A stretch of 23,687 bases of DNA from Candidatus Hodarchaeota archaeon (GTDB taxonomy: Archaea; Asgardarchaeota; Heimdallarchaeia; Hodarchaeales; Hodarchaeaceae), in the NCBI GenBank assembly GCA_029856365.1, contig JAHQWW010000056.1, positions 1-23,687 of the forward strand, in the 5' to 3' direction. Positions within the stretch are counted from its first letter, which is position 1. Each line of letters starts with the position of its first letter. Positions 1 through 19,031 of this stretch are shown one piece after another. Made by a program: the position numbers and the translations under genes. The notes under the pieces are model-generated. The model was not told the DNA's origin, did no database searches, and was given only the letters and a program-made list of their open reading frames with translations.

Positions 1-248
1 AAATTCAAAAGCTAGCAAATATTACAAAAGAACTCCTTTTAGCTTATCTTGACGAGATTGAAGAGCGAATCACTAATTTCATTGAAAATACTAATGATGA
101 AGATTTGTTCGAAAAGGATGGATTTGATCCGCATTTAAAAAGCATCTTAGAAAAACTGTTATACTTACTAAGACATAATATGCACCATATAGGAGAATTA
201 AATAAAGCTCTAAGGGACTGGAATTGCCAACGAATAAGTTGGTGTTAA
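1..248 (+). CDS. DinB/YfiT-family putative metalloprotein, 5'-truncated at the window edge
   Basis: Not in the ORF track. The frame from base 3 reads IQKLANITKELLLAYLDEIEERIT...LLYLLRHNMHHIGELNKALRDWNCQRISWC* with TAA at 246-248. HxxHHxGE in a C-terminal helix is the DinB-superfamily signature. Confidence 0.75.
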   Translation, partial: IQKLANITKELLLAYLDEIEERITNFIENTNDEDLFEKDGFDPHLKSILEKLLYLLRHNMHHIGELNKALRDWNCQRISWC

Positions 249-285: not shown

Positions 286-1083
286 ATGGATTGGTCAATA
301 GAAGACCTGAATACATTCCGACAACAGCAGCAGGCTCAAGAAATCGAACTTAATGACACTAAGTGGGAATTTTATGACATTGGAGAAAAAAACTCTGAAT
401 TTTCTATTGTGTTTTTACATGGCACAACTGGTACTAAAGAGATTTTTTGGTTACCAATGAGATCATTTATGAATAAATATCGCGTAATAAGTTTTGATTT
501 ACCCCCTATAGTCGGAATCGAAAACCTATCACTAGGAATACATGAAATACTAATCAGAATCGATATACAAAAAATAATATTAATTGGAACTTCGTTTGGT
601 GGTTATCTGGCTCAACATTTCTGTTCTAAATATAACGAGATGGTTGAAAAACTTGTACTTTCAAATACATTCATAACAACCCACCTTTATCATCAGAAAT
701 ACAAAAAATTACTCTCGATTGAGAAATTAATTCCCTTTTTTTTGATAAAAAGATTTATGAAAAGAAGTTTAATGACATTAGAGCATGACCAAGCTCGTGA
801 GTACCTTATCGTTCAATTAGAACAAAGTTTAACCAAAAAAGCATTGATGGCACGTCTAAAGAGCTTTATTACAACTAGAACCATTGAAGTTGCCCCGTCA
901 GATCAAGTTCTAATAATTGAGACGGAAAACGACCCATTAGTTCCTAAACAACTACAAAACGAATTGAAAGAAGCATACCCTCATGCGATCGTAAAAAGTT
1001 TTAACAAGAAAGCAAACCATTTTCCGTATCTCACAATGAGTGATGATTATAGTCAAATTCTAATTGATTTTTTAAAGAGATGA
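286..1083 (+). CDS. Alpha/beta hydrolase, maspardin (SPG21/ACP33)-like
   Basis: Has FLHG oxyanion motif, GTSFGG nucleophile elbow, ENDPLV acid and NHFPYL His. Blocks WEFYDIG, GTKEIF, YRVIS, LVLSNTF, LMARL, YPHA and FPYL match remembered maspardin blocks in order. Confidence 0.8.
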   Translation: MDWSIEDLNTFRQQQQAQEIELNDTKWEFYDIGEKNSEFSIVFLHGTTGTKEIFWLPMRSFMNKYRVISFDLPPIVGIENLSLGIHEILIRIDIQKIILIGTSFGGYLAQHFCSKYNEMVEKLVLSNTFITTHLYHQKYKKLLSIEKLIPFFLIKRFMKRSLMTLEHDQAREYLIVQLEQSLTKKALMARLKSFITTRTIEVAPSDQVLIIETENDPLVPKQLQNELKEAYPHAIVKSFNKKANHFPYLTMSDDYSQILIDFLKR

Positions 1084-1109: not shown

Positions 1110-1117
1110 TTTTTTTT
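1110..1117 (+). terminator. Possible archaeal oligo-T terminator
   Basis: T8 run beginning 27 nt after the stop of 286..1083. Confidence 0.35.
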
Positions 1118-1178: not shown

Positions 1179-1613
1179 ATGAATAACGTTGAAAAAGCTG
1201 TTTCTTGTTTTAAAACCAAATTTAATTGCTCTCAAGCAATTTTTTCAACTTATGGGCCAGAATCAGGCATTGATCGAGATTCTTGTTTGAAAATAGCAGA
1301 GATTTTTGGGGGCGGAATGGCTTATATGGGTAACATATGTGGTGCGGTTACTGGCGCATTCATGGTCATTGGCCTTAACTATGGAAGAATAAGAGATGAT
1401 GATGAAGAAGTAAAAGAAAAAGCATATAATGGCGCTATACAATTTGTCGAAAAATTCAGAACCCGAAATAGTACCATTCTGTGCAAAGAACTGATTGACT
1501 TCGATTTAAGTACGCCAGAGAAAAGGGAACTCGCAAGAGAAAAAAATGTTTTTGATAAATGCCTAAAATTTGTTCACGATGCGGCTGAGATACTCGAGGA
1601 GATTATTTCATAA
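1179..1613 (+). CDS. C_GCAxxG_C_C family putative redox-active protein
   Basis: FNCSQA, FGGGM..GNICGAVTGA, CKEL and a C-terminal Cys (DKC) match the family cysteine pattern; 144 aa. Confidence 0.88.
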   Translation: MNNVEKAVSCFKTKFNCSQAIFSTYGPESGIDRDSCLKIAEIFGGGMAYMGNICGAVTGAFMVIGLNYGRIRDDDEEVKEKAYNGAIQFVEKFRTRNSTILCKELIDFDLSTPEKRELAREKNVFDKCLKFVHDAAEILEEIIS

Positions 1614-1737
1614 ACAGAAAGTTCACAAACACAAACTATTATCCGTATCTCACTATAGGTGATGATTATTTTTAAATCCTGATCGATTGCATAATTTAGA
1701 GGGGTTAATTGCTTTACAAGAAAAGGATGAAAGCCAA

Positions 1738-2574
1738 ATGAATAACCTAAAACAACAGAGATTACAGACATCAATAGCTGATTTATCTTATTATCGAACC
1801 AAAACTCTGGAGTATAATTTTGATATTTTATTTATTCATGGATTGGGGGGAAACAAGGAATGGTTTCCAAGGCATTATGATTTGTATTCCATTGATAAAT
1901 TTTCATGGATTGTCCCAGATCTCATTGGTCATGGAAATTCAGCAAAACCAGACACACAAAAAGCTTATTTGATGGATCAACAAGCTAAGAATTTATATCA
2001 AGTTTTGATAAAAGAGAAAGTAAAATCACTTGTGATAATTGCTCATTCAATGGGTGGACCTATAGCAATATCTCTCATTGAACAATTAATCCAAGAGAAA
2101 GATCGAAAAGTTAAGCTACTAGGCTTATTTTATTTGGAAGGGAATTTAGATAAGAATGATACCTTTTTTTCTTCCCAAATCGCAAAATACTCATATAAAG
2201 AATACGAGAAAGAATTTAACTCTTGGATAAAAACACTCAATAAGAAGACCAAAGGAAAACTAGTGGAATTTATAGCTGAACTTCAAAAAATAGGCCCATT
2301 CCCCTTATGGGCTACAAGTGTGTATCTGGTTTCAGTTTCATTGAGTAACCAGCTCTTACCTCGATTACAATCTGCATTAAAAGAGTTTACCTGTCCAGTT
2401 TATTTCATATACGGAGAAAAAAATAAGGGATTATTTTCTTCCGAAACATTGGTCAAACAAGCTCAATTACCGCTAATATTTATCCCTGAAGCTGGTCATG
2501 TTATGTTTGAAGACAACCCAATTGCTTTTTGGAAGGTTATAAAGCAATCGCTACGTCAATTAGAGACTCAATGA
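1738..2574 (+). CDS. Alpha/beta fold hydrolase
   Basis: FIHGLGG, PDLIGHGNS, AHSMGG nucleophile and AGHVMFED His. The in-frame ATG at 1738 is preferred over the TTG at 1687. Confidence 0.85.
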   Translation: MNNLKQQRLQTSIADLSYYRTKTLEYNFDILFIHGLGGNKEWFPRHYDLYSIDKFSWIVPDLIGHGNSAKPDTQKAYLMDQQAKNLYQVLIKEKVKSLVIIAHSMGGPIAISLIEQLIQEKDRKVKLLGLFYLEGNLDKNDTFFSSQIAKYSYKEYEKEFNSWIKTLNKKTKGKLVEFIAELQKIGPFPLWATSVYLVSVSLSNQLLPRLQSALKEFTCPVYFIYGEKNKGLFSSETLVKQAQLPLIFIPEAGHVMFEDNPIAFWKVIKQSLRQLETQ

Positions 2575-2616: not shown

Positions 2617-3927
2617 CTACACTGGTTTCAAATAACCCCACTTTTCTAGGGCCTTTTGAAGCTCAGAATGCGATTTGGCTTTCTCTTCAAGTGAAATTCC
2701 TTCACGCCAAGCATCAATCGCTTGGACAGTAGCTTTAGTACCTGAATAGGTGCCTTCAGGATGACCATGAATACCACCACCGACTTGTAGGATCATATCA
2801 GTGGTTCCATATACAGTTAGAACTTCTGGAAGAACTCCTGGATGCAATCCACCGGAAGCAACTGGTAAAGTAGGTTTAAGGTTCCCCCATGATTGAGCAA
2901 GTCTTCTTCCCTTATCCTCACTGATTTCTTGATTAAGCAAAAGATCTCTCATATCTAGCACATCCTCTTTCGGACTATCAAGTTTACCTACGACGGTACC
3001 AATATGGATATTATCGACTCCAATAAGTCTCATTAATTTGGCTAAGAAATACATACTTATACCGTGCGTATAGTGTTTTGTGAACGTTGCATGCATAGCA
3101 CGGTGCGCATGTATGGCCATATCTAGATCGTCTACTAAATTTCTAAGGGTTTGAACGCTTGCAAAACCAGTGGTTACTACATCAACCATGAAATATTTAA
3201 ATCCATGATCATGAATAACCTTCACACGATTCTCCATTTCATACGTTTCTGCAGTCACATTGATGAGTGCATCTTTCATTTCACCAGTTTCATTTTCAGC
3301 TTTATCTCGTGTCTTTGCCATCTGTTCAACACGTTTCTCAAAGATATTAAACGACTGAGAGGTGAGATTCTCGTCATCTTTAACCAAATCACCCCCAGCG
3401 CTCCAAAAGTCCCAGGCAATTTCACAATGCTGTTCTACAGTCAGACCAACTTTAGGTTTGGGAACACAGGCTAGTAATGGTCCTTCTTTCTTTTTGAAAA
3501 TTTTCTGAATAGCCTCAACTCCCATATAAGGGCCCTTAGATCCTTTAATGTATTCCAAAGGAAGAGTGGCATCTATCAATCGTAAATTCTTAATTGCTTT
3601 CATTCCAAAGATATTACCTGCTATCCCCGACATCAGTTGTGGTACATTATCTTGCTCCCATAAAATCAAAGGATAAGCAATCTTAACTAAATTTAGATGT
3701 TCATCATTCCAGAAGGCACGTCCTCGCATATCATATATTCGATTATCTAGTGTCTCCAAAGTAGTCCAAGTTCCAATTGAAGATTCTGATGCTAATCTTC
3801 CAATAGTATCATCAACCGAGACCTCTTCTGATTTATCAAAATAATAAAGAGCGATTAGATCATCCTTTTTTGGACTGTATTTCCGATCAATAAAATCATG
3901 ATACCACTCTATTTTCTCTTTCACCAA
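2617..3927 (-). CDS. rbcL: Form III ribulose-1,5-bisphosphate carboxylase large chain
   Basis: ASESSIGTWT, AGNIFGMK, KPKVG, GGDLVKDDENLT, HAHRAMH, HIGTVVGKL, ASGGLHPG and GGGIHGHP are all present, so it has a full catalytic set rather than a form IV pattern. N-terminus resembles Pyrococcus/Archaeoglobus form III. Start is TTG 3927 or GTG 3924, with SD-like GAGAGGT upstream. Confidence 0.96.
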   Translation of the reverse strand: MVKEKIEWYHDFIDRKYSPKKDDLIALYYFDKSEEVSVDDTIGRLASESSIGTWTTLETLDNRIYDMRGRAFWNDEHLNLVKIAYPLILWEQDNVPQLMSGIAGNIFGMKAIKNLRLIDATLPLEYIKGSKGPYMGVEAIQKIFKKKEGPLLACVPKPKVGLTVEQHCEIAWDFWSAGGDLVKDDENLTSQSFNIFEKRVEQMAKTRDKAENETGEMKDALINVTAETYEMENRVKVIHDHGFKYFMVDVVTTGFASVQTLRNLVDDLDMAIHAHRAMHATFTKHYTHGISMYFLAKLMRLIGVDNIHIGTVVGKLDSPKEDVLDMRDLLLNQEISEDKGRRLAQSWGNLKPTLPVASGGLHPGVLPEVLTVYGTTDMILQVGGGIHGHPEGTYSGTKATVQAIDAWREGISLEEKAKSHSELQKALEKWGYLKPV

Positions 3928-4036: not shown

Positions 4037-5272
4037 TTAACCAGCTTCAATGTTTGTATAAGGGATACTGGTATCATAATCAACCTCTTCCGCTCCAACC
4101 ATTCGCTTCCAACGTGCTACCATCCAATGGAAAGCCTCTTCTGTATCAGAATCCATTGAGAAATGATCCTCTGCTTGATAATTAAATAATCGAAGTGTTG
4201 ATATTTTAGATTCATATTTCGCTTCCAGTCTTCCGATAAAAATCCCACGATAAAGGAGAGGATAGACATAATAACCCCATTTCCGATCCTGAGGTTTTTT
4301 ATAGACTTCCCACATATAATCAAAATCAAACAGCTTATTCAGAAGTTGCCTATCCCAAATAAGTGGATCTAAAGGGCCAATAACTCTCATCTCATCATCA
4401 AGAGATTCTTGACTCATTTCACCCCAGTTCGAAGGAACAATGTATCCCATGGCCTCGACCTTGAGTTGAATAAGTGAAGGAGTCAATCTATCTATATTTT
4501 CTTCACTTAAAAGCCTATCAGGAGAGAGATTAATTTTCTTGCCAAATTTTATTCCCTTCTTTTTAATTGATAATCGTCCTGTAGAAATGACTGGAAAACT
4601 CTGTAACTTGAGAATTAACTTTAGATGTTGCTGTTCCTCTTCCGAATAACTCTGTTTAACTAGTGCAGACTCTTCGACATAACGTTCAATCACATCGTAT
4701 GTTTTTCGGAAATTTTCATCGCGTATAACCGCAAGTTTGCCCATAGCCCATAAAAGCTCAAGAGCTGTCCCTGAATTTCGACTTGTTTTCCATACTGCAT
4801 ATTTAGGATCAGCTTTACCTAAACTAACTAAGTCTGAACTTCTTGTAATTCCCTGTTTTTGAACATAATTCAACACTTGATCAAGCATATCAGGATGAGT
4901 TTGCTCAAGTATCCTTAATGCACGACTATAATATCTATCAAGATGGTTGCGATCAAGCGTTTGAGAGTAAAAGAGAGGAAAATGTTCTATATGAATCGCA
5001 TTTAAATTATGAAAATATGTTTCAAATACCAATTTCTCAGGATAGACAGTTCTTTCAAATTCTCCCTGATGATAATCGTGTATTCGTGAGCTGAAAAAAA
5101 GATCATGATATCTACTAGCAGGATTGATTAGATCCAATTGCACAAACCCTTGTTCTCTAATAACTTTTCTGATACCATCCTGTTCTTTGCTTTGCCAGCG
5201 ATGGAGATGACATCCTACTAATAATATTCGTTTTAATTCGTGATTGCTAATCTCAGGAATTTTTAATACCAT
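4037..5272 (-). CDS. ycaQ: YcaQ-like (HTH_42/AlkZ superfamily) interstrand-crosslink DNA glycosylase
   Basis: N-terminal VQLD (QxD motif) followed by INPASRYHDL. C-terminal PLDPLIWDR...FDYMWEVYKKPQDRKWGYYVYPLLY...IGRLE is typical of YcaQ; 411 aa. Confidence 0.85.
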   Translation of the reverse strand: MVLKIPEISNHELKRILLVGCHLHRWQSKEQDGIRKVIREQGFVQLDLINPASRYHDLFFSSRIHDYHQGEFERTVYPEKLVFETYFHNLNAIHIEHFPLFYSQTLDRNHLDRYYSRALRILEQTHPDMLDQVLNYVQKQGITRSSDLVSLGKADPKYAVWKTSRNSGTALELLWAMGKLAVIRDENFRKTYDVIERYVEESALVKQSYSEEEQQHLKLILKLQSFPVISTGRLSIKKKGIKFGKKINLSPDRLLSEENIDRLTPSLIQLKVEAMGYIVPSNWGEMSQESLDDEMRVIGPLDPLIWDRQLLNKLFDFDYMWEVYKKPQDRKWGYYVYPLLYRGIFIGRLEAKYESKISTLRLFNYQAEDHFSMDSDTEEAFHWMVARWKRMVGAEEVDYDTSIPYTNIEAG

Positions 5273-5812: not shown

Positions 5813-8797
5813 ATGGTTGAAGAAAAATCGATTATCAGAAGCCTCCCAAAGAATGGACTCACGAATGTTGAAGTAATTGAAAGACAAAAACGCTTCGGAA
5901 TAAATAAACTTCCTGAAAAGATAGGACGGGGGCCCTTTGTTATTTTTTTATCACAATTTGAGAATCCACTCATTTATATAATCTCTATCGCAGCTATCAT
6001 CTCCCTTGTTTTAGAAGAGTTCGGGGATGCCCTAATTATAGGATTAGTAATATTCCTAAATACAGTTGTCGGATTCTTCCAAGAATATAGAGCAGAAAAA
6101 ACAATGTCTGCTTTAAGGCAATTATTGAAACCCACAGCGAAAGTAATAAGAGAAGGGAATATTGTAGAGGTAGAAACGACCGAAATTGTCCCTGATGATA
6201 TGATTCTCTTGAATCCTGGTGATAAAATTCCTGCGGATGGAGAATTGATCGAATCGATAAATCTCTCTATTAATGAGGCCATACTTACTGGAGAAAGTGA
6301 ATCCGTAATTAAGGCCATTAATGATACTGTTTACATGGGAACTACTGTAATGGCGGGTAGAGGGTTGATGAAAGTTACCTTTATTGGAATAGATACAGAA
6401 CTGGGTAAAATAGCAACTTCTCTTGCTGAGATTCAAGATGAAATTACTCCATTGCAAGTAAGACTTCAAAATTTTGGAAAAACATTGACCTATTTTGTTA
6501 TTATCATATGTATTGTCATTTTCTCAACAGGGGTCTTATTAACTTTCAATTTTGTCGATATGATTAGAATCTCAGTCATTCTAGCCATTGCAGCTATTCC
6601 AGAAGGTCTTATAATTGCGGTTACAATGATTCTTGCTATTGGAATGCACAGAATTTTACAAAGAAAAGGTTTAGTCAGAAAACTTCTAGCGGTAGAGACA
6701 CTTGGCTCGGTTACGACTATCTGTACTGACAAAACAGGAACATTAACCGAGGGGACCATGCAGGTTGTGAGAACTGATTTCAGATCAGAAAAAATGGCTA
6801 TATTTATAATGGCATTGTGTAACAACCTTGAGGATTCTCTGGAGGTTCAGCTGTGGAAACATATAGAAATCATGAAGATGGATCCCCAAGAACTCTCTAA
6901 TAAATGTAGACGTGTCGACGAAATACCATTCTCAAGTGAGAACAAATACATGATGACTACTAATATCATTAATGGTACTGAGGTCGGTTTGGTCAAAGGG
7001 GCACCAGATATCGTAATGGGATTCTGTAAACTAAATCCTGATGAAAAACAAAAGCTCATCATTCAATTTGAAGAATGGGCGAGTATGGGATTGAAATTAC
7101 TCGGATTAGCCTATAAGCAGGAGGGAATCCTTAGGAATGTTAGAGGTTATACTTGGGTCGGTCTAATTGGGATTGAAGATCCCGTGAGACCATCAGCAAA
7201 AGATGCGATTATCCTCTGCCGTCGTGCGGGAATTAAAGTTAAAATAATTACAGGAGATTACCAAAAAACTGCAATAAAAGTAGCAGCGAATCTTGGTTTG
7301 GTCGTTGGGTCCGATAGAATATTGGAAGGGTCAGAAATCGAAACAATGAATGAATCGGAACTGATGGAAGTTGTTGACGATATTGTCATATTCTGTCGAG
7401 TTACGCCACATCACAAACTAAGAATAGTGACAGCTCTTCAAAATTGTGGTGAACAAATAGCTATGATCGGAGACGGTGTGAATGATGCTCCTGCTCTCAA
7501 AAAAGCAAATATTGGTGTTTCAGTGGGAGGAGCTACCGATGTGGCTCAAGAAACCGCTAGCCTTATTCTTTTAGATAATAATTTCAAAACACTTGTTGAT
7601 TCTGTGGAAGAAGGGAGAGTCATCTTCGACAATATTAAAAAGGTTGTTGCATTTGTACTTTCTAATTCTTTTGCCGAAATTACCATAATTTTCGTAGCTT
7701 TCATTTTAGGATGGCCTGTTCCCTTAACTATAGCTCAAATCTTATGGATTCACCTAATATGTGATGGACCATCCGACATCGCGCTTGGTTTTGAACCAGG
7801 AGAGAAAGGAATCATGGATGAACCACCGAGAAGCATCAAAGAAAATATTCTAGACAATAAGGGGAAATTACTCATCATAGCTATCAGTTCTATATCTGCA
7901 ATTTTCTGTTTACTCTTATTTAGTTACTTCAATAATATTGTTGAAAACGAAAAATTAGCTAGAACGCTTGTATTCACCATTTTAGCAATTCAATCATTAA
8001 TCTACATTTTCTCATTCCGGAGTCTTAGACGATCCATCTTCAAATCAGGTAATTTTTTCTCGAATAAACCCCTAATTTTTTCCGTAGTTCTGGGCATAGG
8101 CCAAGTATTTGTTGCGCTCTACATTCCATTTTTTAATGATATATTGGACGTGGTTCCGTTAGATTTTACAAGTTGGGTTATAGTACTTAGCGTTTCTTTT
8201 TGTATGGTAGCCATTGTAGAAATTGTCAAGTTCATTGATAGTAGATTGTTTCGAGCAACACCTCTTCAAAACATATTTGCAAATATTGAGCGAGTCCAAC
8301 AAAAATTACCTAAAATACATAATTTGCATAATATTTCAATCGATATCATGGAAGATAAAACATTGATTCAATTCCATTTTTATATACCAGCTGAAACTAC
8401 CTTAGAGATTGCGCATGAAGTAGCAAAAAGCATTGAAGAGAAAATTGCTGATGAATTTCCCATTTCTCTTCGTAAAAACCTAGAGATTATTAGCCACATT
8501 GAACCAACCCAATTACAACCAGGAAGAATTCATTCCCATCCTACCCCCATAATCTCTCCAAGTTTTCAGGATATCATTCAGACGATAGTCAAAGAAATTC
8601 CTCAAATAAAAGGATGGGATCACGGAACTGTACTTCAAGACGAAGGAAATATTTCCATATCTATGACGGTTTATCTAGAAGGAACTATGAATATCATCCG
8701 AGTGCACAATATAACTGAAGAAATAGAAACTAAGCTTAGGAGAAATATTCCCTCTCTTAAACGATGTTTTATTCATTCCGAACCCTATATACCATAA
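5813..8797 (+). CDS. P2-type cation-transporting ATPase with two C-terminal CDF-type (ZT_dimer) domains
   Basis: PGDKIPADG, LTGES, AAIPEGL, DKTGTLT, KGAPD, DPVR, TGD and GDGVNDAPALK in a 10-TM layout. An extra ~180 aa C-terminal tail has two repeats ending HIEP and HSEP. Confidence 0.93.
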   Translation: MVEEKSIIRSLPKNGLTNVEVIERQKRFGINKLPEKIGRGPFVIFLSQFENPLIYIISIAAIISLVLEEFGDALIIGLVIFLNTVVGFFQEYRAEKTMSALRQLLKPTAKVIREGNIVEVETTEIVPDDMILLNPGDKIPADGELIESINLSINEAILTGESESVIKAINDTVYMGTTVMAGRGLMKVTFIGIDTELGKIATSLAEIQDEITPLQVRLQNFGKTLTYFVIIICIVIFSTGVLLTFNFVDMIRISVILAIAAIPEGLIIAVTMILAIGMHRILQRKGLVRKLLAVETLGSVTTICTDKTGTLTEGTMQVVRTDFRSEKMAIFIMALCNNLEDSLEVQLWKHIEIMKMDPQELSNKCRRVDEIPFSSENKYMMTTNIINGTEVGLVKGAPDIVMGFCKLNPDEKQKLIIQFEEWASMGLKLLGLAYKQEGILRNVRGYTWVGLIGIEDPVRPSAKDAIILCRRAGIKVKIITGDYQKTAIKVAANLGLVVGSDRILEGSEIETMNESELMEVVDDIVIFCRVTPHHKLRIVTALQNCGEQIAMIGDGVNDAPALKKANIGVSVGGATDVAQETASLILLDNNFKTLVDSVEEGRVIFDNIKKVVAFVLSNSFAEITIIFVAFILGWPVPLTIAQILWIHLICDGPSDIALGFEPGEKGIMDEPPRSIKENILDNKGKLLIIAISSISAIFCLLLFSYFNNIVENEKLARTLVFTILAIQSLIYIFSFRSLRRSIFKSGNFFSNKPLIFSVVLGIGQVFVALYIPFFNDILDVVPLDFTSWVIVLSVSFCMVAIVEIVKFIDSRLFRATPLQNIFANIERVQQKLPKIHNLHNISIDIMEDKTLIQFHFYIPAETTLEIAHEVAKSIEEKIADEFPISLRKNLEIISHIEPTQLQPGRIHSHPTPIISPSFQDIIQTIVKEIPQIKGWDHGTVLQDEGNISISMTVYLEGTMNIIRVHNITEEIETKLRRNIPSLKRCFIHSEPYIP

Positions 8798-10098: not shown

Positions 10099-11004
10099 TT
10101 GAGAAAATCGGAGATCTTTCTGTTAGATAATTATAAACAAATCCAAAAAAAGGCAAGAACTGCAACATTGATTGCTTTAGCTGTCAATACGTCGCTAGGC
10201 CTCTTGAAAATCATCTCAGGGTTAGTTATTTCCAGTATGTCGTTAATTGCAGATGGATTCGATTCACTGATGGATTTATTTATGGGAATATTTGCTTTTC
10301 TTGGAACAATTATTGCTCAGAAACCTGCTGATGAGGATCACTTATATGGGCATGAAAAAATTGAAATGATTTATCTTCTATTAATAATTGGAATTATTCT
10401 ACTTACAGGACTCGTTATCTTTTTTCAAGCCCTCGATCGTTTTATAAAGGGAATAGAGCTGGAATTCTCAATTTTAGGATTAGTAATTGTAATTGTATCT
10501 ATTTTAGGAAAATTAGGTATTTCTATTGTTGTCTATCGAATATCAACACAAATCGATTCAGCCAGTCTTAGAGCTACAGCATTCAATTACATGACTGACA
10601 TGTTATCTTCAGGTTTGGTTTTGATAGCTGTGATGGGAGCTTATATTAAATTTGGGATTATTGATTCCATTGCAGCAGTCATTATCTCACTATTAATTAC
10701 TTATGGAGCTCTTAAAATGCTTGGAGACGCTTTGAGTATTCTTTTAGACCGCGCACCTGATGAAAAAGAGCTTGAACTCATACTTGATTTAGCTACTTCA
10801 GTTGAGGGTGTTAAAGAAGTTCATAAAATACGAGCGAGAATGATAAGAAGCAGGGTTGTTGGTGACATGCATGTACTAGTTGATCCAGATCTTTCTGTTC
10901 GAGAAGGCCATGGGATTAGCGAAAAAGTTTTTGATATCATCCAAAGAAAGCTTGGAGCAAATATAATTATTCATTTAGAACCTTATGAACAAAAAAAGTT
11001 ATGA
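10099..11004 (+). CDS. Cation diffusion facilitator (FieF/MntE-like) transporter
   Basis: SMSLIADGFDSLMD, KPADEDHLYGHEKIE, AFNYMTD, six TM segments and a C-terminal ZT_dimer (DMHVLVD..SVREGHGISE..IHLEP). TTG start is uncertain. Confidence 0.93.
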   Translation: MRKSEIFLLDNYKQIQKKARTATLIALAVNTSLGLLKIISGLVISSMSLIADGFDSLMDLFMGIFAFLGTIIAQKPADEDHLYGHEKIEMIYLLLIIGIILLTGLVIFFQALDRFIKGIELEFSILGLVIVIVSILGKLGISIVVYRISTQIDSASLRATAFNYMTDMLSSGLVLIAVMGAYIKFGIIDSIAAVIISLLITYGALKMLGDALSILLDRAPDEKELELILDLATSVEGVKEVHKIRARMIRSRVVGDMHVLVDPDLSVREGHGISEKVFDIIQRKLGANIIIHLEPYEQKKL

Positions 11005-14885: not shown

Positions 14886-15701
14886 ATGAATAGAATTTAT
14901 TTAAACATAATATTAGGAGTTAGTATGACTGCAATTGTCTCTTTAGGAGGACTTTTTGCTACCCCATTTTTGATGACTTATTTTTTTCCAGATCAGATTA
15001 AAGAAATTCGTCGTGCAGACCACATTTACCATATATCCTTCGATTATCATAATTATTCAGAAATGACTCTTCCAATCACATCATTAGGTATTTTTTATAG
15101 AGAGTTCAACAGTACGAAGTTACACCATCCTGATCCATATTTTGTGGGTATTTTTGTGACAAGAGAAGGCGTGAATAAAGATAAATATATAACGAATGAC
15201 TCAATATGGAAATTTCATGCGTACCAAGGTTATGAATATAATGATTGGAATGTTGCAATGGTCTTTGGTGCTCATACTAAAGTAAATCCAGACATTTATA
15301 TTCATCACAACCATATTTCTTATGAAGTGATTCTTTTCAGTCAACTGATACTAGAAGCACTTTCAATTGCGCCAGTTGTTAATGAACTTGTCTTATTTCC
15401 GAATTTAAATTATTCAGAAAGTCGTAAGGGTACTGGTGATTGGCAAATACCAGAGAATTGGGAGTTTTCAGCAAGAATAATGTTTGAAAACGCTACATCA
15501 ATAGATATAGATGCACACAGGGATGGTTGGTTACAATCTATAAGATTTCAGTGTGAGCAATGGGCTACCACAGAAGAAGGAATACCTTATTGTGTCGTTG
15601 GTGCAGGGCCTCGCATCTATAAAGAATATGGGGCTATATTCGATGATTTTCATCAAACTTTTGGACACTATGCGCGTACTCACATAAGTTGGATTAAATA
15701 A
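14886..15701 (+). CDS. Hypothetical protein with an N-terminal membrane anchor and a probable extracellular domain
   Basis: 271-aa ORF with a hydrophobic N-terminal segment, five N-x-S/T sequons and a close Cys pair. Only 2 bp separate it from the next gene. Confidence 0.75.
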   Translation: MNRIYLNIILGVSMTAIVSLGGLFATPFLMTYFFPDQIKEIRRADHIYHISFDYHNYSEMTLPITSLGIFYREFNSTKLHHPDPYFVGIFVTREGVNKDKYITNDSIWKFHAYQGYEYNDWNVAMVFGAHTKVNPDIYIHHNHISYEVILFSQLILEALSIAPVVNELVLFPNLNYSESRKGTGDWQIPENWEFSARIMFENATSIDIDAHRDGWLQSIRFQCEQWATTEEGIPYCVVGAGPRIYKEYGAIFDDFHQTFGHYARTHISWIK

Positions 15702-15703
15702 GG

Positions 15704-16213
15704 ATGATTTTTGTGGAGAAAAGTAAAAATCGAAATACAGAAAGAGAGATCTTCCATAATGAGATTGATCTTAATAATCTTAGAAAAGACTTGAGAGGTA
15801 CAACTTTACAAGTCTATTTACTTCTTGCGAAGGCAAAAGATCGAAATTTTGGAGTTCGGGAGATACAACGAGTATTAAATATGAGTAGTGTTTCTCTGGC
15901 AGATTATCATCTGAAAAAACTCGAAGAGCTAAAAATAGTAGAAAAGGATTCTCACGGTAAATACAGAGTGACTGAATTATTACCAATTGGCGAAATGGAA
16001 GAGTTTCTCGTATTAAAGGGCAGGTATTTACCTAAAGAGATTTTTTATTTATCATTCTCTACCTCCGCTTTGATCCTAAGTGTAGTATTTTTTCTTCTAA
16101 AATTTTGGGGGCCAATGTTGGCTATTCTTTTTGCAAGTGCTTTTTTAGGTGCAATCTATTCGTGGATAAGATTTTCATCCCTTTGGAGAAGAAAAAGTGA
16201 AGAATCTTATTAG
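15704..16213 (+). CDS. Winged-helix transcriptional regulator with two C-terminal TM helices
   Basis: LRGTTLQVYLLL...GVREIQRVLNMSSVSLADYHLKKLEELKIVEKD..GKY is an archaeal ArsR-like wHTH, followed by two hydrophobic helices. Confidence 0.85.
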   Translation: MIFVEKSKNRNTEREIFHNEIDLNNLRKDLRGTTLQVYLLLAKAKDRNFGVREIQRVLNMSSVSLADYHLKKLEELKIVEKDSHGKYRVTELLPIGEMEEFLVLKGRYLPKEIFYLSFSTSALILSVVFFLLKFWGPMLAILFASAFLGAIYSWIRFSSLWRRKSEESY

Positions 16214-16373: not shown

Positions 16374-19031
16374 TTGAGGTTCATTGGTGTGCCATCTCTC
16401 CGCTTAGGGAAAATCATCACTTCATCATTCACTTTCAAGGAAAAAAATATCAAAATAGCGTGGATCATCATCTTAGTTTGGTTAATCATTATCACTCCCG
16501 TATCAGCTTTGTTATCGGCTAGAGTGATGGAAAGCATGAGTACTGAATGGAGTTTTGTTCCTACTGGATCTGAATCTGATATCGCTTTGGAGATTTTGGA
16601 GAGAGAATATCCACCATCTAATGAATCTTTGATTGCTCTATTAAAGTCTAAAACTGGGTTTGCCTTCAATGATACTCTATTTAACAGTACTTACCAAGCC
16701 TCAAACCAAACCACTGATGATCTTATTGAAGCTATAATCTCAGCATCAAATGATAATTTCCTATATGGTTTATTTTTGAGTCTTTATATCAATGATTCTA
16801 TCTACGACTGGGAAATTGGAAAATTTGAAAATATTATTTCCCCTTTTGTCCATTTTCCTGGTTTAATCATGACTTTTCCCAATCAATCAAACATATGGCA
16901 AGATTTTTGGACTCAAATGTTTTTTGAAGACGATACGATAACTATAATTATCATCGGATTAGAAATTTCCAGTTCTGGCTTTTCCGCGCTTGGTGTTGGT
17001 GAACAGAGTACGTATTTTGAGTATATTCAAGAGCTAAGGGATTTTATAAGTGATAAGTTACCAAAAAGACTTAATTTAGCCGCCATTGGACTTGGCATCG
17101 ATGTTCATCCTGATACGGAGACAAAAATTACAGGTTCACTTGCGATCTCTTATGATAGTCTAGAATCATCTGAAGCTGATCGGGAACGTATGGATATTCT
17201 TACTGTGGTGTTGGTTATTATCATTCTCTTTATTGTCCTACGTTCAATAGTAGCTCCCACGGTTCCTTTAGTGACGATGGTTCCAGCTCTTCTCTTAGCA
17301 AACACGGTACTATTTTTCTTAGGGCAATATATTGAAATTGGTACATTTGCTCCAGTTATCGTGACGGTATTGGGATTAGGTGTTGGAGTTGATTACTCCA
17401 TCTTCATTCTAACCCGATTTATTGATGAAATACAGGAAGGAAAAACCCGAGAAGAAGCAGTCGAAACCTCACTTACGATGAGTGGAAGAGCAATTCTTTC
17501 TTCAGGTTTAGTTGTAATTATGGGTTTTGGGGCATTATTGATTCCAAATATTGAGTTAATTCAAAGTATCGGACTAGGTGCTATCATTGCAATAATTTGT
17601 GGATTATTGTCTGCTTTTACATTACTTCCATCATTACTTCACATATTTGGCGAAAAAATCACTTGGCCCAGAAAAATATCTGTTATTAAATATCAGGATG
17701 AAGAGAATGAAAAACTTACAGACAAAGCGAGAACAAAGACAAATGATACAATTTGGGGGAAATTTGCAAGATTTAGTATCCGTTTCGCTTGGCCCATCAT
17801 CATTATTGCTATAGTTGTCACTATACCTTTCGCTTTTTTGCTGACTTCATACCAACCATCTTATGATATATTATCTATGCTCCCTCCTAATGTCGAGAGT
17901 AGTGAAGCTTTTGAAATACTTGATGAGATCGATATGACAAGCGAATTATATGGAAATAGCATGGTACTTTCTGGGTTTAGCAGTTCTGATGAACTCTGGT
18001 CAAATAACACCCTTTATGCTATTGATCGTTTAGCAAATTGGCTCACCGATACTGAAGCTATAAAAGATGTGGAAACCATTACACGGCCGTCTATGGGATT
18101 TGTAAAATTAAATTTGATTGAGTTGGCTAGGACTGCACAAGGAGTAGAGGTTCCCTACCTTTCTGTTTCATCTTTAAGCGCTGTAGCACAAGAACATTTA
18201 CCTCTTGAAAGTACATTTGACGATATCATTCAAGAGTACGTGAATTGGAACCAAGCAAATAATACAGTAATAGTGAAATTAAATTTTATTAATAATCCAA
18301 TGGGCTCAGAAGCAATGGGAGACCTACGTTATCTTAGGGGGGAATTAAAAGATCTAACCATATTTGATCTGCCTTCTCCTGTTAGAGGATATATAGTTGG
18401 TGGAACCTCAATCAATGTAGATATGTCTAACGAGTTGTATTCTGCTTTTCCGCTAATGGTTCTCTGGATCATGGTTACAATAATGGTTATACTAACTCTT
18501 TTATTAGGTTCTATAACTGTTCCTATCAGATTAATAATCACTATAGCAACCTCTGTCATTTGGACTTTAGGCTTCTTGGTTTTAATGTTTCAATTCAACC
18601 TTGAAGAAATTACTATAACCTTAATAAATCCTAATATCAATATAGAAGCAGGATTATATTGGATAATCCCTCCGATATTATTCTGTATCCTCTTTGGACT
18701 CGGAATGGATTATGATATCTTTATTACTTCAAGAATCCGTGAGGAATATCTGAAAGGAAAGTCAAATCATGAAGCTATTGAAGAAGGCCTGCTTCATACC
18801 GCCTCAGTGGTCACTTCTTGTGCATTAATCATGGCTGGAGCATTCCTTGCACTCTGGTTTTCTTTCATATTGATCTTAACTGAAATTGGCTTAGGAATGG
18901 TTTTCGCGGTGATCGTGGATGCAACCATAGTCCGGATTTTTCTTGTTCCTGCAGCAATGGCAATTATGGGTGATAAGTATAATTGGTGGCCTGAATGGAT
19001 TAATAAGAAATTTGGAAAATTAGTTCATTAA
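16374..19031 (+). CDS. MmpL-family (RND superfamily) transporter
   Basis: Two repeats of TM + large loop + 5 TM, with GLGVGVDYSIFILTRF and FGLGMDYDIFITSRIREE (DY pairs), SGRAILSSG and VDATIVRIFLVPA. The true start may be GTG 16389, which has GAGGT 8 nt upstream. Confidence 0.93.
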   Translation: MRFIGVPSLRLGKIITSSFTFKEKNIKIAWIIILVWLIIITPVSALLSARVMESMSTEWSFVPTGSESDIALEILEREYPPSNESLIALLKSKTGFAFNDTLFNSTYQASNQTTDDLIEAIISASNDNFLYGLFLSLYINDSIYDWEIGKFENIISPFVHFPGLIMTFPNQSNIWQDFWTQMFFEDDTITIIIIGLEISSSGFSALGVGEQSTYFEYIQELRDFISDKLPKRLNLAAIGLGIDVHPDTETKITGSLAISYDSLESSEADRERMDILTVVLVIIILFIVLRSIVAPTVPLVTMVPALLLANTVLFFLGQYIEIGTFAPVIVTVLGLGVGVDYSIFILTRFIDEIQEGKTREEAVETSLTMSGRAILSSGLVVIMGFGALLIPNIELIQSIGLGAIIAIICGLLSAFTLLPSLLHIFGEKITWPRKISVIKYQDEENEKLTDKARTKTNDTIWGKFARFSIRFAWPIIIIAIVVTIPFAFLLTSYQPSYDILSMLPPNVESSEAFEILDEIDMTSELYGNSMVLSGFSSSDELWSNNTLYAIDRLANWLTDTEAIKDVETITRPSMGFVKLNLIELARTAQGVEVPYLSVSSLSAVAQEHLPLESTFDDIIQEYVNWNQANNTVIVKLNFINNPMGSEAMGDLRYLRGELKDLTIFDLPSPVRGYIVGGTSINVDMSNELYSAFPLMVLWIMVTIMVILTLLLGSITVPIRLIITIATSVIWTLGFLVLMFQFNLEEITITLINPNINIEAGLYWIIPPILFCILFGLGMDYDIFITSRIREEYLKGKSNHEAIEEGLLHTASVVTSCALIMAGAFLALWFSFILILTEIGLGMVFAVIVDATIVRIFLVPAAMAIMGDKYNWWPEWINKKFGKLVH

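What the first reader, a model, noticed from the sequence alone, without database searches (positions are those of the whole stretch)
286..1083. Archaeal maspardin/SPG21 homologue with an apparently intact catalytic triad
Seen: the ORF follows human maspardin, as I remember it, block by block: FR...WEFYDIG vs FR...WSLYDAG; GTKEIF vs GTADVF; GTSFGGYLAQHF vs GASLGGFLAQKF; LVLSNTF vs LILCNSF; LIPFFLIKR vs LMPAFMLKK; SLTKKALMARL vs SLGQSELASRL; YPHA vs YPNA; NHFPYL vs GNFPYL. Established: maspardin is an endolysosomal trafficking protein regarded as a non-catalytic alpha/beta hydrolase. Here the His (NHFPY instead of GNFPY), the HG oxyanion motif (FLHG instead of FLPP) and a candidate Asp (ENDPLV) are all retained. 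Inference: this may be an enzymatically active prokaryotic relative of a eukaryotic pseudoenzyme, and a possible eukaryotic-signature protein if the host is Asgard.
Basis: partly seen in the sequence, partly recalled or inferred. Interest (0 to 1): 0.72.

Follow-up and report, generated by a model that had tools for sequence, protein, structure and literature searches.

The report
Asgard maspardin-like hydrolase, triad intact
This archaeal gene encodes a probably active serine hydrolase that is a true relative of the human spastic-paraplegia protein maspardin, but equally close relatives are common in bacteria, so it is not evidence that maspardin came from Asgard archaea.

Summary
The ORF at 286-1083 (+) is real: 265 aa, conserved at 43-83% identity in Asgard MAGs. 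It is specifically related to eukaryotic maspardin (SPG21). BLASTP to Nematostella maspardin gives E 5e-24 over the full length, a eukaryotic maspardin HMM gives 172.7 bits, and the AF2 model matches a plant 'Maspardin' model cluster at TM 0.91. No solved hydrolase scores above about 55 bits. Ser103, Asp216, His245 and the H45-G46 oxyanion motif are invariant in the Asgard clade. They sit at the canonical alpha/beta-hydrolase positions. All eukaryote-type sequences examined have N, D, E or Y at the His position.

The ancestry inference is not specifically supported:
- The family is widespread in bacteria (Chloroflexota, Alphaproteobacteria and others), and JGI already auto-names many members 'maspardin'.
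- An alphaproteobacterial member matches eukaryotic maspardin as well or better (174.5 bits; BLASTP 104 vs 85.9 bits).
- Only 14 of 399 Asgard genomes carry a strong match, 13 of them in one class.

No tree could be built because the script machine was lost, so origin is unresolved. The scan had flagged the same idea on at least 9 other genomes, in first-reader notes only. Verdict: a new member of a known kind, of moderate interest.

The parts
286..1083 (+). Complete ORF of 265 aa plus TGA stop (P0001): maspardin-like alpha/beta hydrolase
   Evidence: Conserved at 43-83% identity in Asgard MAGs. AF2 model has mean pLDDT 96.4 and pTM 0.93.
418..423 (+). H45-G46, the oxyanion-hole 'HG' motif directly after strand 40-44
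   Evidence: Invariant in 16 Asgard clade members. Position relative to the strand is from the model.
586..603 (+). Nucleophile elbow G101-T-S103-F-G-G106. Ser103 is nt 592-594, between strand 97-102 and helix 104-115.
   Evidence: Invariant. It aligns with the nucleophile Ser of PhaZ 8ynv, whose Ser-to-Ala mutant is 8ynw, and of 7dq9 and 4opm.
682..867 (+). Helical cap (lid) domain, residues about 133-194, four helices
   Evidence: DSSP on the AF2 model. This region carries the family-specific P-x-F-x-(L/I)-K and Q-L-E...(A/S)-R-L blocks shared with maspardins.
931..933 (+). Asp216, candidate catalytic acid in the loop after strand 208-213
   Evidence: Invariant in the clade. It aligns with the acid-position Asp of 7dq9, 8ynv and 4opm.
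1018..1020 (+). His245, candidate catalytic base in the loop after strand 235-239, within A-N-H-F-P-Y-L
   Evidence: Invariant in alignment A3. It aligns with the catalytic-position His of 7dq9, 8ynv and 4opm. Eukaryote-type sequences have N, D, E or Y here.
1110..1117 (+). Run of 8 T, 27 nt after the stop codon: possible archaeal transcription-termination signal
   Evidence: Read directly from the sequence. Its function is inferred only.
3..248 (+). 3' part of the upstream gene, cut by the window start. Its orthologues are DinB_2-family proteins placed 33-55 nt upstream of the hydrolase in two related genomes.
   Evidence: No Pfam hit for the 81-aa fragment itself. The adjacency was seen only within the genus and not in the more distant L088.

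Best explanation
The ORF encodes a soluble cytosolic alpha/beta-fold serine hydrolase. Ser103 on the G-T-S-F-G-G elbow attacks an ester or thioester carbonyl. His245 acts as general base and is oriented by Asp216. The oxyanion is stabilised by backbone amides of the H45-G46 turn and of Phe104. A four-helix cap (about 133-194) covers the pocket and sets a still unknown substrate specificity.

The protein belongs to a distinct 'maspardin-like' family (KEGG K19367 type) that is mainly prokaryotic. The family includes a Chloroflexota-dominated branch, a proteobacterial (largely alphaproteobacterial) branch, and two small branches in Heimdall/Hodarchaeales-type Asgard archaea. Eukaryotic maspardin (SPG21) is the derived branch that lost the catalytic His before the eukaryotic radiation and became a non-enzymatic RAB7 effector. 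Which prokaryotic branch gave rise to the eukaryotic gene is unresolved. An alphaproteobacterial source is at least as likely as an Asgard one.

Shown: the homology, the conservation and canonical placement of the catalytic residues, and the taxonomic distribution. Inferred: catalytic activity, substrate class, cytosolic location and evolutionary polarity.
For: Family membership:
- phmmer against 1.84 billion representatives finds eukaryotic maspardins at E 1e-19 to 1e-24, among them Chromera 'Maspardin' and Nonionella.
- A profile of 20 eukaryotic maspardins returns the Asgard clade as its first non-eukaryotic hit, at 174 bits.
- That profile scores this ORF at 172.7 bits. hhalign gives 100% probability, E 7e-46, over 259 columns.
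- The ESM Atlas shape search gives TM 0.91 and rmsd 1.7 A over 258 residues to a plant 'Maspardin' cluster, and TM 0.87 to a bacterial 'putative Maspardin' cluster. The best solved structures reach TM 0.81-0.82.

Triad:
- H45, G46, S103, D216 and H245 are invariant in 16 clade members.
- They align with the catalytic positions of PhaZ, a feruloyl esterase and a lipase.
- In a model of pLDDT 96.4 they lie after strand 40-44, between strand 97-102 and helix 104-115, after strand 208-213 and after strand 235-239.

Eukaryotic branch: all eukaryote-type sequences examined carry N, D, E or Y at the His position. SPG21 is reported to lack a triad and to be a RAB7A effector (PMC12483374).

Bacterial breadth: named homologues occur in Anaerolineae/Chloroflexota, Thermodesulfobacteriota, Saprospiraceae, Marinimicrobia, Calditrichota, Spirochaetes and Alphaproteobacteria. 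A search with an alphaproteobacterial member gives 343 relatives at E<=1e-15, many named 'maspardin' by JGI.

Origin unresolved:
- The alphaproteobacterial L089 scores 174.5 bits against the eukaryotic HMM.
- L089 gives hhalign 255.9 against 232.3 for this ORF.
- L089 gives BLASTP 104 bits and 30% identity to Nematostella maspardin, against 85.9 bits and 26% for this ORF.
Against: - No enzymatic assay exists for any member of this family.
- The triad's 3D distances were not measured because the script machine was lost.
- One clade member (P0019) naturally has Asn at the His position, so catalysis may not be indispensable.
- Substrate is not indicated by context. The conserved neighbours (DinB_2 upstream; form-III-like RuBisCO and AlkZ-like downstream) are shared only within one genus.
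- All matches to curated enzyme models lie far below their cut-offs.
- Similarity scores are not a phylogeny, and AT-rich composition could inflate the Asgard scores.
Confidence: 0.7

Rival explanations
1. Asgard ancestry. Eukaryotic maspardin descends vertically from this Heimdall/Hodarchaeales hydrolase family. The gene would then be a true eukaryotic-signature protein, and the bacterial copies would be more distant or secondarily transferred.
For: - Genus-level orthologues are among the highest-scoring prokaryotic sequences against the eukaryotic maspardin HMM, at 156-176 bits, and the other Heimdall-class copies score 116-146. Named Chloroflexota-type bacteria score 100-131 and the five named proteobacterial loci tested score 91-118.
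- The Asgard clade is the first non-eukaryotic hit of the eukaryotic profile.
- Mean identity to a eukaryote (P0096) is slightly higher for the Asgard core, about 26.5%, than for the bacterial groups, about 23-24.5%.
- The W-x-Y-Y-D-x-G, P-x-F-x-(L/I)-K and Q-L-E...(A/S)-R-L blocks are shared with eukaryotes.
- 13 of the 14 Asgard genomes with a strong match lie in the class that includes MAGs labelled Hod- or Heimdallarchaeota.
Against: - An alphaproteobacterial sequence (L089) ties or beats the Asgard protein on every equal-footing measure.
- The eukaryotic profile scores highest against the proteobacterial-type profile: 397.6, against 342.4 and 325.9 for the two Asgard profiles. A smaller profile built only from named proteobacterial loci scored 316.2.
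- Eukaryotes share L-P-G-T-x-G-T-A, N-S-x-x-D, I-T-I-I-D, G-G-x-F-P and R-P-D with the proteobacterial branch.
- The gene is patchy in Asgard: 14 of 399 genomes, and 7 of 22 in its own genus.
- The Asgard profiles are closer to the Chloroflexota-type profile than to eukaryotes.
Confidence: 0.25
2. Bacterial origin of the Asgard copies. The two Asgard branches were acquired by horizontal transfer from sediment bacteria such as Anaerolineae and have no direct bearing on eukaryogenesis. Eukaryotes obtained maspardin from the alphaproteobacterial (mitochondrial) lineage or another bacterium.
For: - Distribution in Asgard is patchy.
- After the Asgard clades, the nearest relatives of P0001 are Chloroflexota-type bacteria at 30-36% identity.
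- Profile scores are A4-A5 511 and A3-A4 408.
- The alphaproteobacterial branch is large, and JGI names many of its members maspardin.
- L089 is the best single match to eukaryotic maspardin.
Against: - No tree was made, and direction of transfer cannot be read from scores.
- The Asgard core still scores as high as the best alphaproteobacterium against the eukaryotic HMM.
- The five named proteobacterial loci tested with the eukaryotic HMM score lower than the Asgard genes.
Confidence: 0.45
3. The protein works like maspardin rather than like an enzyme: a scaffold or small-GTPase effector whose conserved 'triad' residues serve binding or stability.
For: - Human SPG21 binds RAB7A-GTP through the hydrolase-fold body, and its elbow Ser109 was reported as needed for CD4 binding (PMC12483374).
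- Most eukaryotic maspardins keep the elbow Ser although they lack His.
- One Asgard member (P0019) has Asn for His.
- From general knowledge, not tested here: Asgard genomes are rich in small GTPases.
Against: Strict invariance of all five catalytic and oxyanion residues across the 16 aligned clade sequences, at 43-83% identity to the window protein, and their near-invariance in the bacterial branches is the pattern expected for an active hydrolase. No partner gene is conserved next to it.
Confidence: 0.1
4. It is just a generic alpha/beta hydrolase, and the maspardin likeness is chance or fold-level similarity.
For: Pfam and NCBIfam return only generic abhydrolase families or sub-threshold enzyme models. 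The feature-based Atlas search lists generic bacterial clusters.
Against: - Pfam has no maspardin-specific model, so those results cannot discriminate.
- Full-length E values of 1e-24 to 1e-50 to real maspardins compare with 1e-5 to 1e-14 for any solved hydrolase.
- The shape match to the Maspardin model cluster is TM 0.91.
- JGI's KO-based name for a 64%-identical orthologue is 'maspardin'.
Confidence: 0.03

Closest known systems
Eukaryotic maspardin / SPG21 / ACP33 (KEGG K19367), for example Nematostella P0246, Cucumis P0215, Chromera P0116
   Same: - Full-length collinear homology: 26% identity, E 5e-24.
- The same alpha/beta core plus four-helix cap, TM 0.91 to the plant model cluster.
- Shared N-terminal F-R...W-x-Y-Y-D-x-G block, elbow G-x-S-x-G-G-(F/Y)-L-A-Q, P-x-F-x-(L/I)-K, (A/S)-R-L, Y-P-x-A and F-P-Y-L.
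   Different: - This protein keeps His245 and the H-G oxyanion motif. Eukaryotes have N, D, E or Y for His, and many, animals included, have P-G or P-P for H-G.
- It lacks the 30-70 residue C-terminal tail of eukaryotic maspardins.
- No evidence that it binds a Rab-like GTPase.
Bacterial 'maspardin' KO members, alphaproteobacterial branch (for example L089:1483-2304; relatives of P0308 labelled Rhodospirillaceae, Ferrovibrio or SAR324)
   Same: Same family, length and triad: BLASTP 119 bits, 26% identity over the full length. It has the same G-H-F-P-Y signature.
   Different: The bacterial branch has L-P-G instead of L-H-G, N-S instead of N-T, and G-G before the His, all states shared with eukaryotes. 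It is at least as close to eukaryotic maspardin as the Asgard protein is.
Chloroflexota-type branch (for example L018, L013, P0043-P0048)
   Same: 30-36% identity over the full length, with the same H-G, elbow, N-D-P-L-V and G-H-F-P-Y-L motifs. The profile score against the Asgard core is 407.7.
   Different: Several members carry an N-terminal hydrophobic helix that is absent here. They have a characteristic N-T-F-P-P-N strand end and different indels in the cap.
Characterised alpha/beta hydrolases with solved structures: PhaZ poly(3-hydroxybutyrate) depolymerase of B. thuringiensis (8ynv), type-A feruloyl esterase of Alistipes (7dq9), hydrolase 3om8
   Same: Same fold and the same catalytic residue positions.
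   Different: Only 12-20% identity, TM 0.72-0.82, and a different cap. No basis for transferring substrate specificity.

Membership tests
Maspardin family in the broad sense (KEGG K19367-type alpha/beta hydrolases) | Full-length sequence homology to named maspardins, clearly above the generic alpha/beta-hydrolase background | tested here: met
   BLASTP E 5e-24 to Nematostella maspardin. 172.7 bits against a 20-sequence eukaryotic maspardin HMM. hhalign E 7e-46. Controls: 35.8 bits to the neighbouring hydrolase and at most 55.7 bits to any PDB chain.
Maspardin family in the broad sense (KEGG K19367-type alpha/beta hydrolases) | Family-specific blocks outside the universal hydrolase motifs: the N-terminal F-R...W-x-Y-x-D-x-G, the cap P-x-F-x-(L/I)-K, (A/S)-R-L, Y-P-x-A, and F-P-Y after the His position | tested here: met
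   Alignments A7 and A11 and the hhalign columns.
Maspardin family in the broad sense (KEGG K19367-type alpha/beta hydrolases) | Predicted fold, including the cap, superposes on maspardin models | tested here: met
   TM 0.91 and rmsd 1.7 A over 258 residues to the plant 'Maspardin' cluster; TM 0.87 to the bacterial 'putative Maspardin' cluster. Both sides are predicted models.
Maspardin in the strict sense (eukaryotic SPG21: non-catalytic RAB7 effector) | Catalytic His replaced, so no Ser-Asp-His triad | tested here: not met
   His245 is present and invariant in alignment A3. Eukaryote-type sequences have N, D, E or Y at this position. PMC12483374 states that SPG21 lacks a triad.
Maspardin in the strict sense (eukaryotic SPG21: non-catalytic RAB7 effector) | Extra C-terminal helix or tail beyond the hydrolase fold | tested here: not met
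   The protein ends with the last core helix at residue 265. Eukaryotic sequences extend 30-70 residues further. An N-terminal helix (residues 5-14) is present.
Maspardin in the strict sense (eukaryotic SPG21: non-catalytic RAB7 effector) | GTP-dependent binding to RAB7 and endolysosomal localisation | not testable with these tools
   No binding prediction was run, because no specific partner is indicated by the data.
Catalytically competent Ser-Asp-His alpha/beta hydrolase | Nucleophile Ser in a G-x-S-x-G elbow between the central strand and the following helix | tested here: met
   S103 lies in G-T-S-F-G-G between strand 97-102 and helix 104-115. It aligns with the PhaZ nucleophile, mutated in 8ynw.
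Catalytically competent Ser-Asp-His alpha/beta hydrolase | Acid after strand beta7, His after strand beta8, and an H-G oxyanion turn after beta3 | tested here: met
   D216 follows strand 208-213, H245 follows strand 235-239, and H45-G46 follow strand 40-44. All are invariant and align with the same positions in 7dq9, 8ynv and 4opm.
Catalytically competent Ser-Asp-His alpha/beta hydrolase | Triad residues within hydrogen-bonding distance in 3D | not tested
   Model m31badf2cc47b exists, but its coordinates could not be measured after the script machine was lost.
Catalytically competent Ser-Asp-His alpha/beta hydrolase | Measured hydrolytic activity | not testable with these tools
   Needs expression and assay.
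Eukaryotic signature protein of Asgard origin | [quoted passage not shown] | tested here: inconclusive
   Against the eukaryotic HMM, Asgard core scores 156-176 bits and the best alphaproteobacterium 174.5 bits. hhalign with single sequences: L089 255.9 against 232.3 for this ORF. BLASTP to Nematostella: 104 against 85.9 bits.
Eukaryotic signature protein of Asgard origin | Absent or rare in bacteria and other archaea | tested here: not met
   389 representatives at E<=1e-10. Named bacterial homologues in many phyla. 343 relatives of the alphaproteobacterial member. 13 of 401 sampled alphaproteobacterial genomes carry a match.
Eukaryotic signature protein of Asgard origin | Phylogeny places eukaryotes within or sister to the Asgard clade | not tested
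   No tree software remained.

The most novel reading that the evidence does not exclude
Eukaryotic maspardin is a vertically inherited descendant of a Heimdall/Hodarchaeales active serine hydrolase. It would be an overlooked eukaryotic-signature protein that lost its catalytic His on the eukaryotic stem and was recruited as a Rab7 effector. The Asgard enzyme would then reveal the ancestral substrate, and possibly an ancestral GTPase-linked role, of a human spastic-paraplegia protein.
Probability: 0.25. Interest if true: 0.65.

Novelty: new member of a known kind. Interest (0 to 1): 0.4.

Why it matters
Maspardin (SPG21) causes Mast syndrome. It is treated as a pseudoenzyme of unknown ancestral chemistry. 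Showing that it belongs to a well-populated prokaryotic family with an intact Ser-Asp-His triad gives a concrete route to that chemistry. Any member, including this one, could be expressed to find the substrate, and one could then ask what the His-less eukaryotic protein still binds.

All sampled eukaryotic lineages (animals, plants, Amoebozoa, alveolates, Rhizaria, red algae) lack the His. This dates the loss of catalysis to before their divergence.

For eukaryogenesis the result is a caution rather than a discovery. The gene looks Asgard-specific only if bacteria are not examined, and an alphaproteobacterial origin is at least as plausible. I found no paper in the held library that discusses prokaryotic maspardin homologues, although KO-based pipelines already label them.

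Tried and rejected
- Phylogeny and triad distances: the Python machine failed and stayed unavailable. No ML tree, no AU test and no coordinate measurement could be made. I used HMM, hhalign, BLASTP and percent-identity comparisons instead, and I say they are only proxies.
It was repeated with the Asgard-only alignment A3.
- Pfam and NCBIfam have no maspardin-specific model, so they could not discriminate.
- The Atlas feature search returned only generic bacterial hydrolase clusters. The Atlas shape search was informative.
- No solved maspardin structure exists in the PDB copy searched.
- Literature searches for maspardin with Asgard, archaea or prokaryote found nothing relevant.
- Supplements: the Nature 2026 eukaryogenesis paper has no mention. 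Eme et al. 2023 list K19367 only inside a lumped alpha/beta-hydrolase cluster.
- Gene-neighbourhood analysis gave no functional lead, because synteny holds only within the genus.
- The bacterial-type promoter and terminator scan is uninformative for an archaeon.
- The profile-profile result favouring the proteobacterial-type alignment A8 was checked against a named-only alignment, A10, which scored lower (316 against 398). I therefore do not treat profile-profile scores as decisive.
- No complex prediction with a small GTPase was run, because nothing in the data points to a particular partner.
- One genome search failed on a parameter slip and was corrected.
Full report
**1. The observation**

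The window holds an uninterrupted ATG-to-TGA ORF at 286-1083 on the + strand, giving P0001 of 265 aa. A run of eight T starts 27 nt after the stop. The gene is conserved:
- A word-indexed search of 5.8 billion proteins found about 40 full-length relatives at 43-83% identity.
- Every named one comes from an Asgard MAG (Promethearchaeota, Hermod-, Heimdall-, Thor- or Hodarchaeota/Hodarchaeales).
- JGI calls one 64%-identical orthologue 'maspardin'.

I repeated the comparison with sequences that UniRef or NCBI name Maspardin:
- Nematostella maspardin aligns collinearly with residues 23-254 (26% identity, 85.9 bits, E 5e-24).
- As controls, the other alpha/beta hydrolase in this window (1687-2574) gives 35.8 bits over 85 residues. 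No chain in the PDB exceeds 28 bits with the single sequence or 55.7 bits with the clade profile.

**2. Is it specifically maspardin-like?**

Pfam and NCBIfam give only generic abhydrolase families or sub-threshold enzyme models. Neither library returned a maspardin-specific family. An exhaustive phmmer search of 1.84 billion cluster representatives gave 1593 hits at E<=1e-3 and 389 at E<=1e-10. Among these are proteins identified by exact look-up as Chromera velia 'Maspardin' and a Nonionella EukProt protein, at E 1e-19 to 1e-24.

I built a profile of 20 eukaryote-type hits (A1) and searched again:
- It recovered maspardins named by NCBI or UniRef from plants, dictyostelids, Balamuthia, Arcella, Nematostella, insects, molluscs, a crinoid and red algae.
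- The first non-eukaryotic hit was the Asgard clade representative (174 bits, E 2e-45), ahead of bacterial sequences, the first at 151 bits.
- The same profile scores this ORF at 172.7 bits in the window's own genome.
- The profile's best PDB match is 53 bits and partial, and no maspardin structure is in the PDB copy.
- hhalign of the eukaryotic profile against a 16-sequence Asgard clade alignment gives 100% probability, E 7e-46, over 259 aligned columns.

An AlphaFold2 model made from a 65-sequence alignment is very confident (mean pLDDT 96.4, pTM 0.93). In the ESM Atlas shape search its nearest neighbours were:

| Atlas model cluster | TM | Notes |
|---|---|---|
| Chloroflexota hydrolase cluster | 0.93 | |
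| Plant 'Maspardin' cluster | 0.91 | rmsd 1.7 A over 258 residues |
| Bacterial 'putative Maspardin' cluster | 0.87 | |

The best solved structures reach only TM 0.81-0.82. The protein is therefore a member of the maspardin family in the broad sense.

**3. The catalytic apparatus**

H45, G46, S103, D216 and H245 are invariant in the 16-sequence Asgard alignment. They are invariant or nearly so when bacterial branches are added. Profile alignments to characterised enzymes place them as follows:
- S103 falls on the nucleophile; for B. thuringiensis PhaZ the Ser-to-Ala mutant structure is 8ynw.
- D216 falls on the acid position.
- H245 falls on the catalytic His.

In the model these residues lie where the fold requires them:
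- H45-G46 come straight after strand 40-44.
- S103 lies between strand 97-102 and helix 104-115.
- D216 is in the loop after strand 208-213.
- H245 is in the loop after strand 235-239.
- A four-helix cap spans about 133-194.

I could not measure the 3D distances because the script machine was lost.

By contrast, every eukaryote-type sequence I examined has N, D, E or Y at the His position. Many, animals included, have P-G or P-P where prokaryotes have H-G. Most still keep the elbow Ser, and Nematostella keeps the Asp. The literature agrees that SPG21 lacks a triad, is presumed non-enzymatic, and acts as a RAB7A-GTP effector on endolysosomes (PMC12483374).

The protein has no N-terminal hydrophobic segment, unlike several bacterial relatives, so I infer that it is cytosolic. 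My best reading is an active serine esterase, thioesterase or lipase-type hydrolase of unknown substrate.

**4. Who else has it**

The window's genome (4.24 Mb, 204 contigs, 83.6% complete) carries this gene once, plus two distant paralogues at 28% identity.

With the eukaryotic maspardin HMM, 14 of 399 sampled Asgard genomes have a match at E<=1e-30:
- Seven are in the window's own genus (156-176 bits).
- Six more are in the same class (116-146 bits).
- One is elsewhere in the phylum.

Same-genus records are labelled 'Candidatus Hodarchaeota' and 'Candidatus Heimdallarchaeota' by their submitters. I infer, but was not told, that the class is Heimdallarchaeia.

A second Asgard branch occurs in genomes of the same order and class (A5; for example G264, G285, G231). 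It has A-G-H-F-P-Y-L and is 31-38% identical to P0001.

Bacterial relatives are numerous and named:
- Anaerolineae/Chloroflexota above all, then Thermodesulfobacteriota, Saprospiraceae, Marinimicrobia, Calditrichota and Spirochaetes, at 29-36% identity.
- A more distant branch in Alphaproteobacteria, Rhodospirillaceae, Rhodobacteraceae, Advenella and Acidimicrobiia.
- A search with one alphaproteobacterial member returned 343 proteins at E<=1e-15. Many are named 'maspardin' by JGI, and some are labelled Alphaproteobacteria, Rhodospirillaceae, Ferrovibrio, SAR324 or Betaproteobacteria.

**5. Where did eukaryotic maspardin come from?**

Without a tree I used several proxies, and they disagree.

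In favour of Asgard:
- The Asgard core family gave the first non-eukaryotic hit of the eukaryotic profile.
- It scores above all named bacteria I first tested: 100-131 bits for Chloroflexota-type and 91-118 bits for named proteobacteria.
- Its identity to a eukaryote is marginally higher.

Against Asgard:
- A sample of 401 genomes of the class that holds the Rhodospirillaceae record contains 13 matches. The best one (L089) scores 174.5 bits, equal to the Asgard maximum.
- On an equal single-sequence footing, hhalign against the eukaryotic profile gives L089 255.9, this ORF 232.3, two proteobacterial-type representatives 219 and 207, and the second Asgard branch 202.
- BLASTP of Nematostella maspardin gives 104 bits (30% identity) to L089, against 85.9 bits (26%) to this ORF.

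Profile-profile (hhalign) scores:

| Pair | Score |
|---|---|
| Eukaryotes (A1) vs proteobacterial-type (A8) | 397.6 |
| Eukaryotes (A1) vs second Asgard branch (A5) | 342.4 |
| Eukaryotes (A1) vs Asgard core (A3) | 325.9 |
| Eukaryotes (A1) vs named proteobacterial loci only (A10) | 316.2 |
| Eukaryotes (A1) vs Chloroflexota-type (A4) | 290.6 |
| Asgard core (A3) vs second Asgard branch (A5) | 449.9 |
| Asgard core (A3) vs Chloroflexota-type (A4) | 407.7 |
| Asgard core (A3) vs proteobacterial-type (A8) | 394.6 |
| Chloroflexota-type (A4) vs second Asgard branch (A5) | 511.4 |

So the Asgard core is closest to the second Asgard branch and to the Chloroflexota-type branch, not to eukaryotes.

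Motif states are mixed:
- Eukaryotes share W-x-Y-Y-D-x-G, P-x-F-x-(L/I)-K and Q-L-E...(A/S)-R-L with the Asgard core.
- They share L-P-G-T-x-G-T-A, N-S-x-x-D, I-T-I-I-D, G-G-x-F-P and R-P-D with the proteobacterial branch.

I conclude that the ancestry claim is not specifically supported. An alphaproteobacterial or other bacterial origin is at least as likely. The Asgard copies may themselves be transfers from sediment bacteria, given their patchy distribution. Because all eukaryotes lack the His while all prokaryotic branches keep it, transfer from crown eukaryotes into Asgard is unlikely; this is an inference.

**6. Context**

In two related genomes the gene follows a DinB_2 gene by 33-55 nt. 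It is followed by a C_GCAxxG_C_C protein plus a second hydrolase, or by a PALP enzyme, and then by a convergent RuBisCO large-subunit homologue and an AlkZ-like glycosylase. In the more distant orthologue's contig the neighbours are different. The synteny therefore reflects close relatedness and gives no functional clue.

**7. What is known, and novelty**

- KO-based pipelines already name prokaryotic members 'maspardin', and an Atlas cluster of Pseudomonadota proteins is auto-named 'putative Maspardin'.
- I found no paper in the held library that discusses prokaryotic or Asgard maspardin homologues.
- Eme et al. 2023 list K19367 only within a lumped hydrolase cluster. The 2026 Nature analysis of Asgard contributions does not mention it in the supplements held.
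- The scan itself has raised the same idea in first-reader notes on at least nine other genomes, none with a recorded check.

The finding is thus a new member of a known kind. It is a solid and useful annotation: an active-type prokaryotic relative of a human disease pseudoenzyme.

**8. Verdict**

| Item | Rating |
|---|---|
| Observation | confirmed |
| Interpretation | partly supported |
| Broad maspardin-family membership | about 0.95 |
| Active serine hydrolase | about 0.7 |
| Vertical Asgard origin of eukaryotic maspardin | about 0.25 |
| Interest | 0.4 |

Noticed in passing
P0019 (Asgard clade member, 56% identical to P0001): This natural Asgard orthologue has Asn instead of the catalytic His (A-N-N-F-P-Y-L), the same substitution as in animal maspardins. 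It may be a sequencing error, or an independent loss of catalysis within the archaeal clade.
   Followed up: no
G138:C21:49157-49948 (same-genus orthologue): The orthologue in this genome carries one in-frame TAA. This could be a pseudogene, an assembly error or a recoded stop.
   Followed up: no
window 5813-8797 (+): A 994-aa P-type cation ATPase carries zinc-transporter dimerisation (ZT_dimer) matches in two stretches, the best at residues 919-992 at its C terminus. A separate CDF transporter with the same domain lies at 10099-11004. This looks like an unusual fusion of a P-type pump with a CDF cytoplasmic domain.
   Followed up: no
window 2617-3927 (-) and 4037-5272 (-): A RuBisCO large-subunit homologue (both Pfam domains; probably form III, the usual archaeal type) lies next to an AlkZ-like DNA glycosylase. 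The pair is conserved downstream of the hydrolase in two related genomes.
   Followed up: partly
window 1179-1613 (+) and 1687-2574 (+): A C_GCAxxG_C_C putative redox protein and a second, unrelated alpha/beta hydrolase follow the maspardin-like gene (TTG start as listed; 24% identity to P0001 over 85 residues). The same pair is present in the 83%-identical relative, but a PALP enzyme takes its place in the CP070695 genome.
   Followed up: partly
L002:1495-2328 (-) and L003:1426-2334 (+), own genome contigs C142 and C98: Two distant paralogues (28% identity to P0001) begin with the same F-x...W-x-Y-I-x-G type N-terminal block but have P-G or T-G in place of H-G and a different His-loop motif. 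They score about 75 bits against the eukaryotic maspardin HMM and could serve as outgroups.
   Followed up: partly
P0043-P0045 (bacterial Chloroflexota-type relatives): These bacterial family members carry an N-terminal hydrophobic helix, so they are probably membrane-anchored. The Asgard and alphaproteobacterial members do not have it.
   Followed up: no
window 16374-19031 (+), 14886-16213 (+), 21467-23314 (+): An MMPL-family transporter is preceded by two ORFs with no Pfam match. Further on is a 615-aa protein with DAGK_cat and YegS_C lipid-kinase domains in its first half and about 300 further residues with no Pfam match.
   Followed up: no
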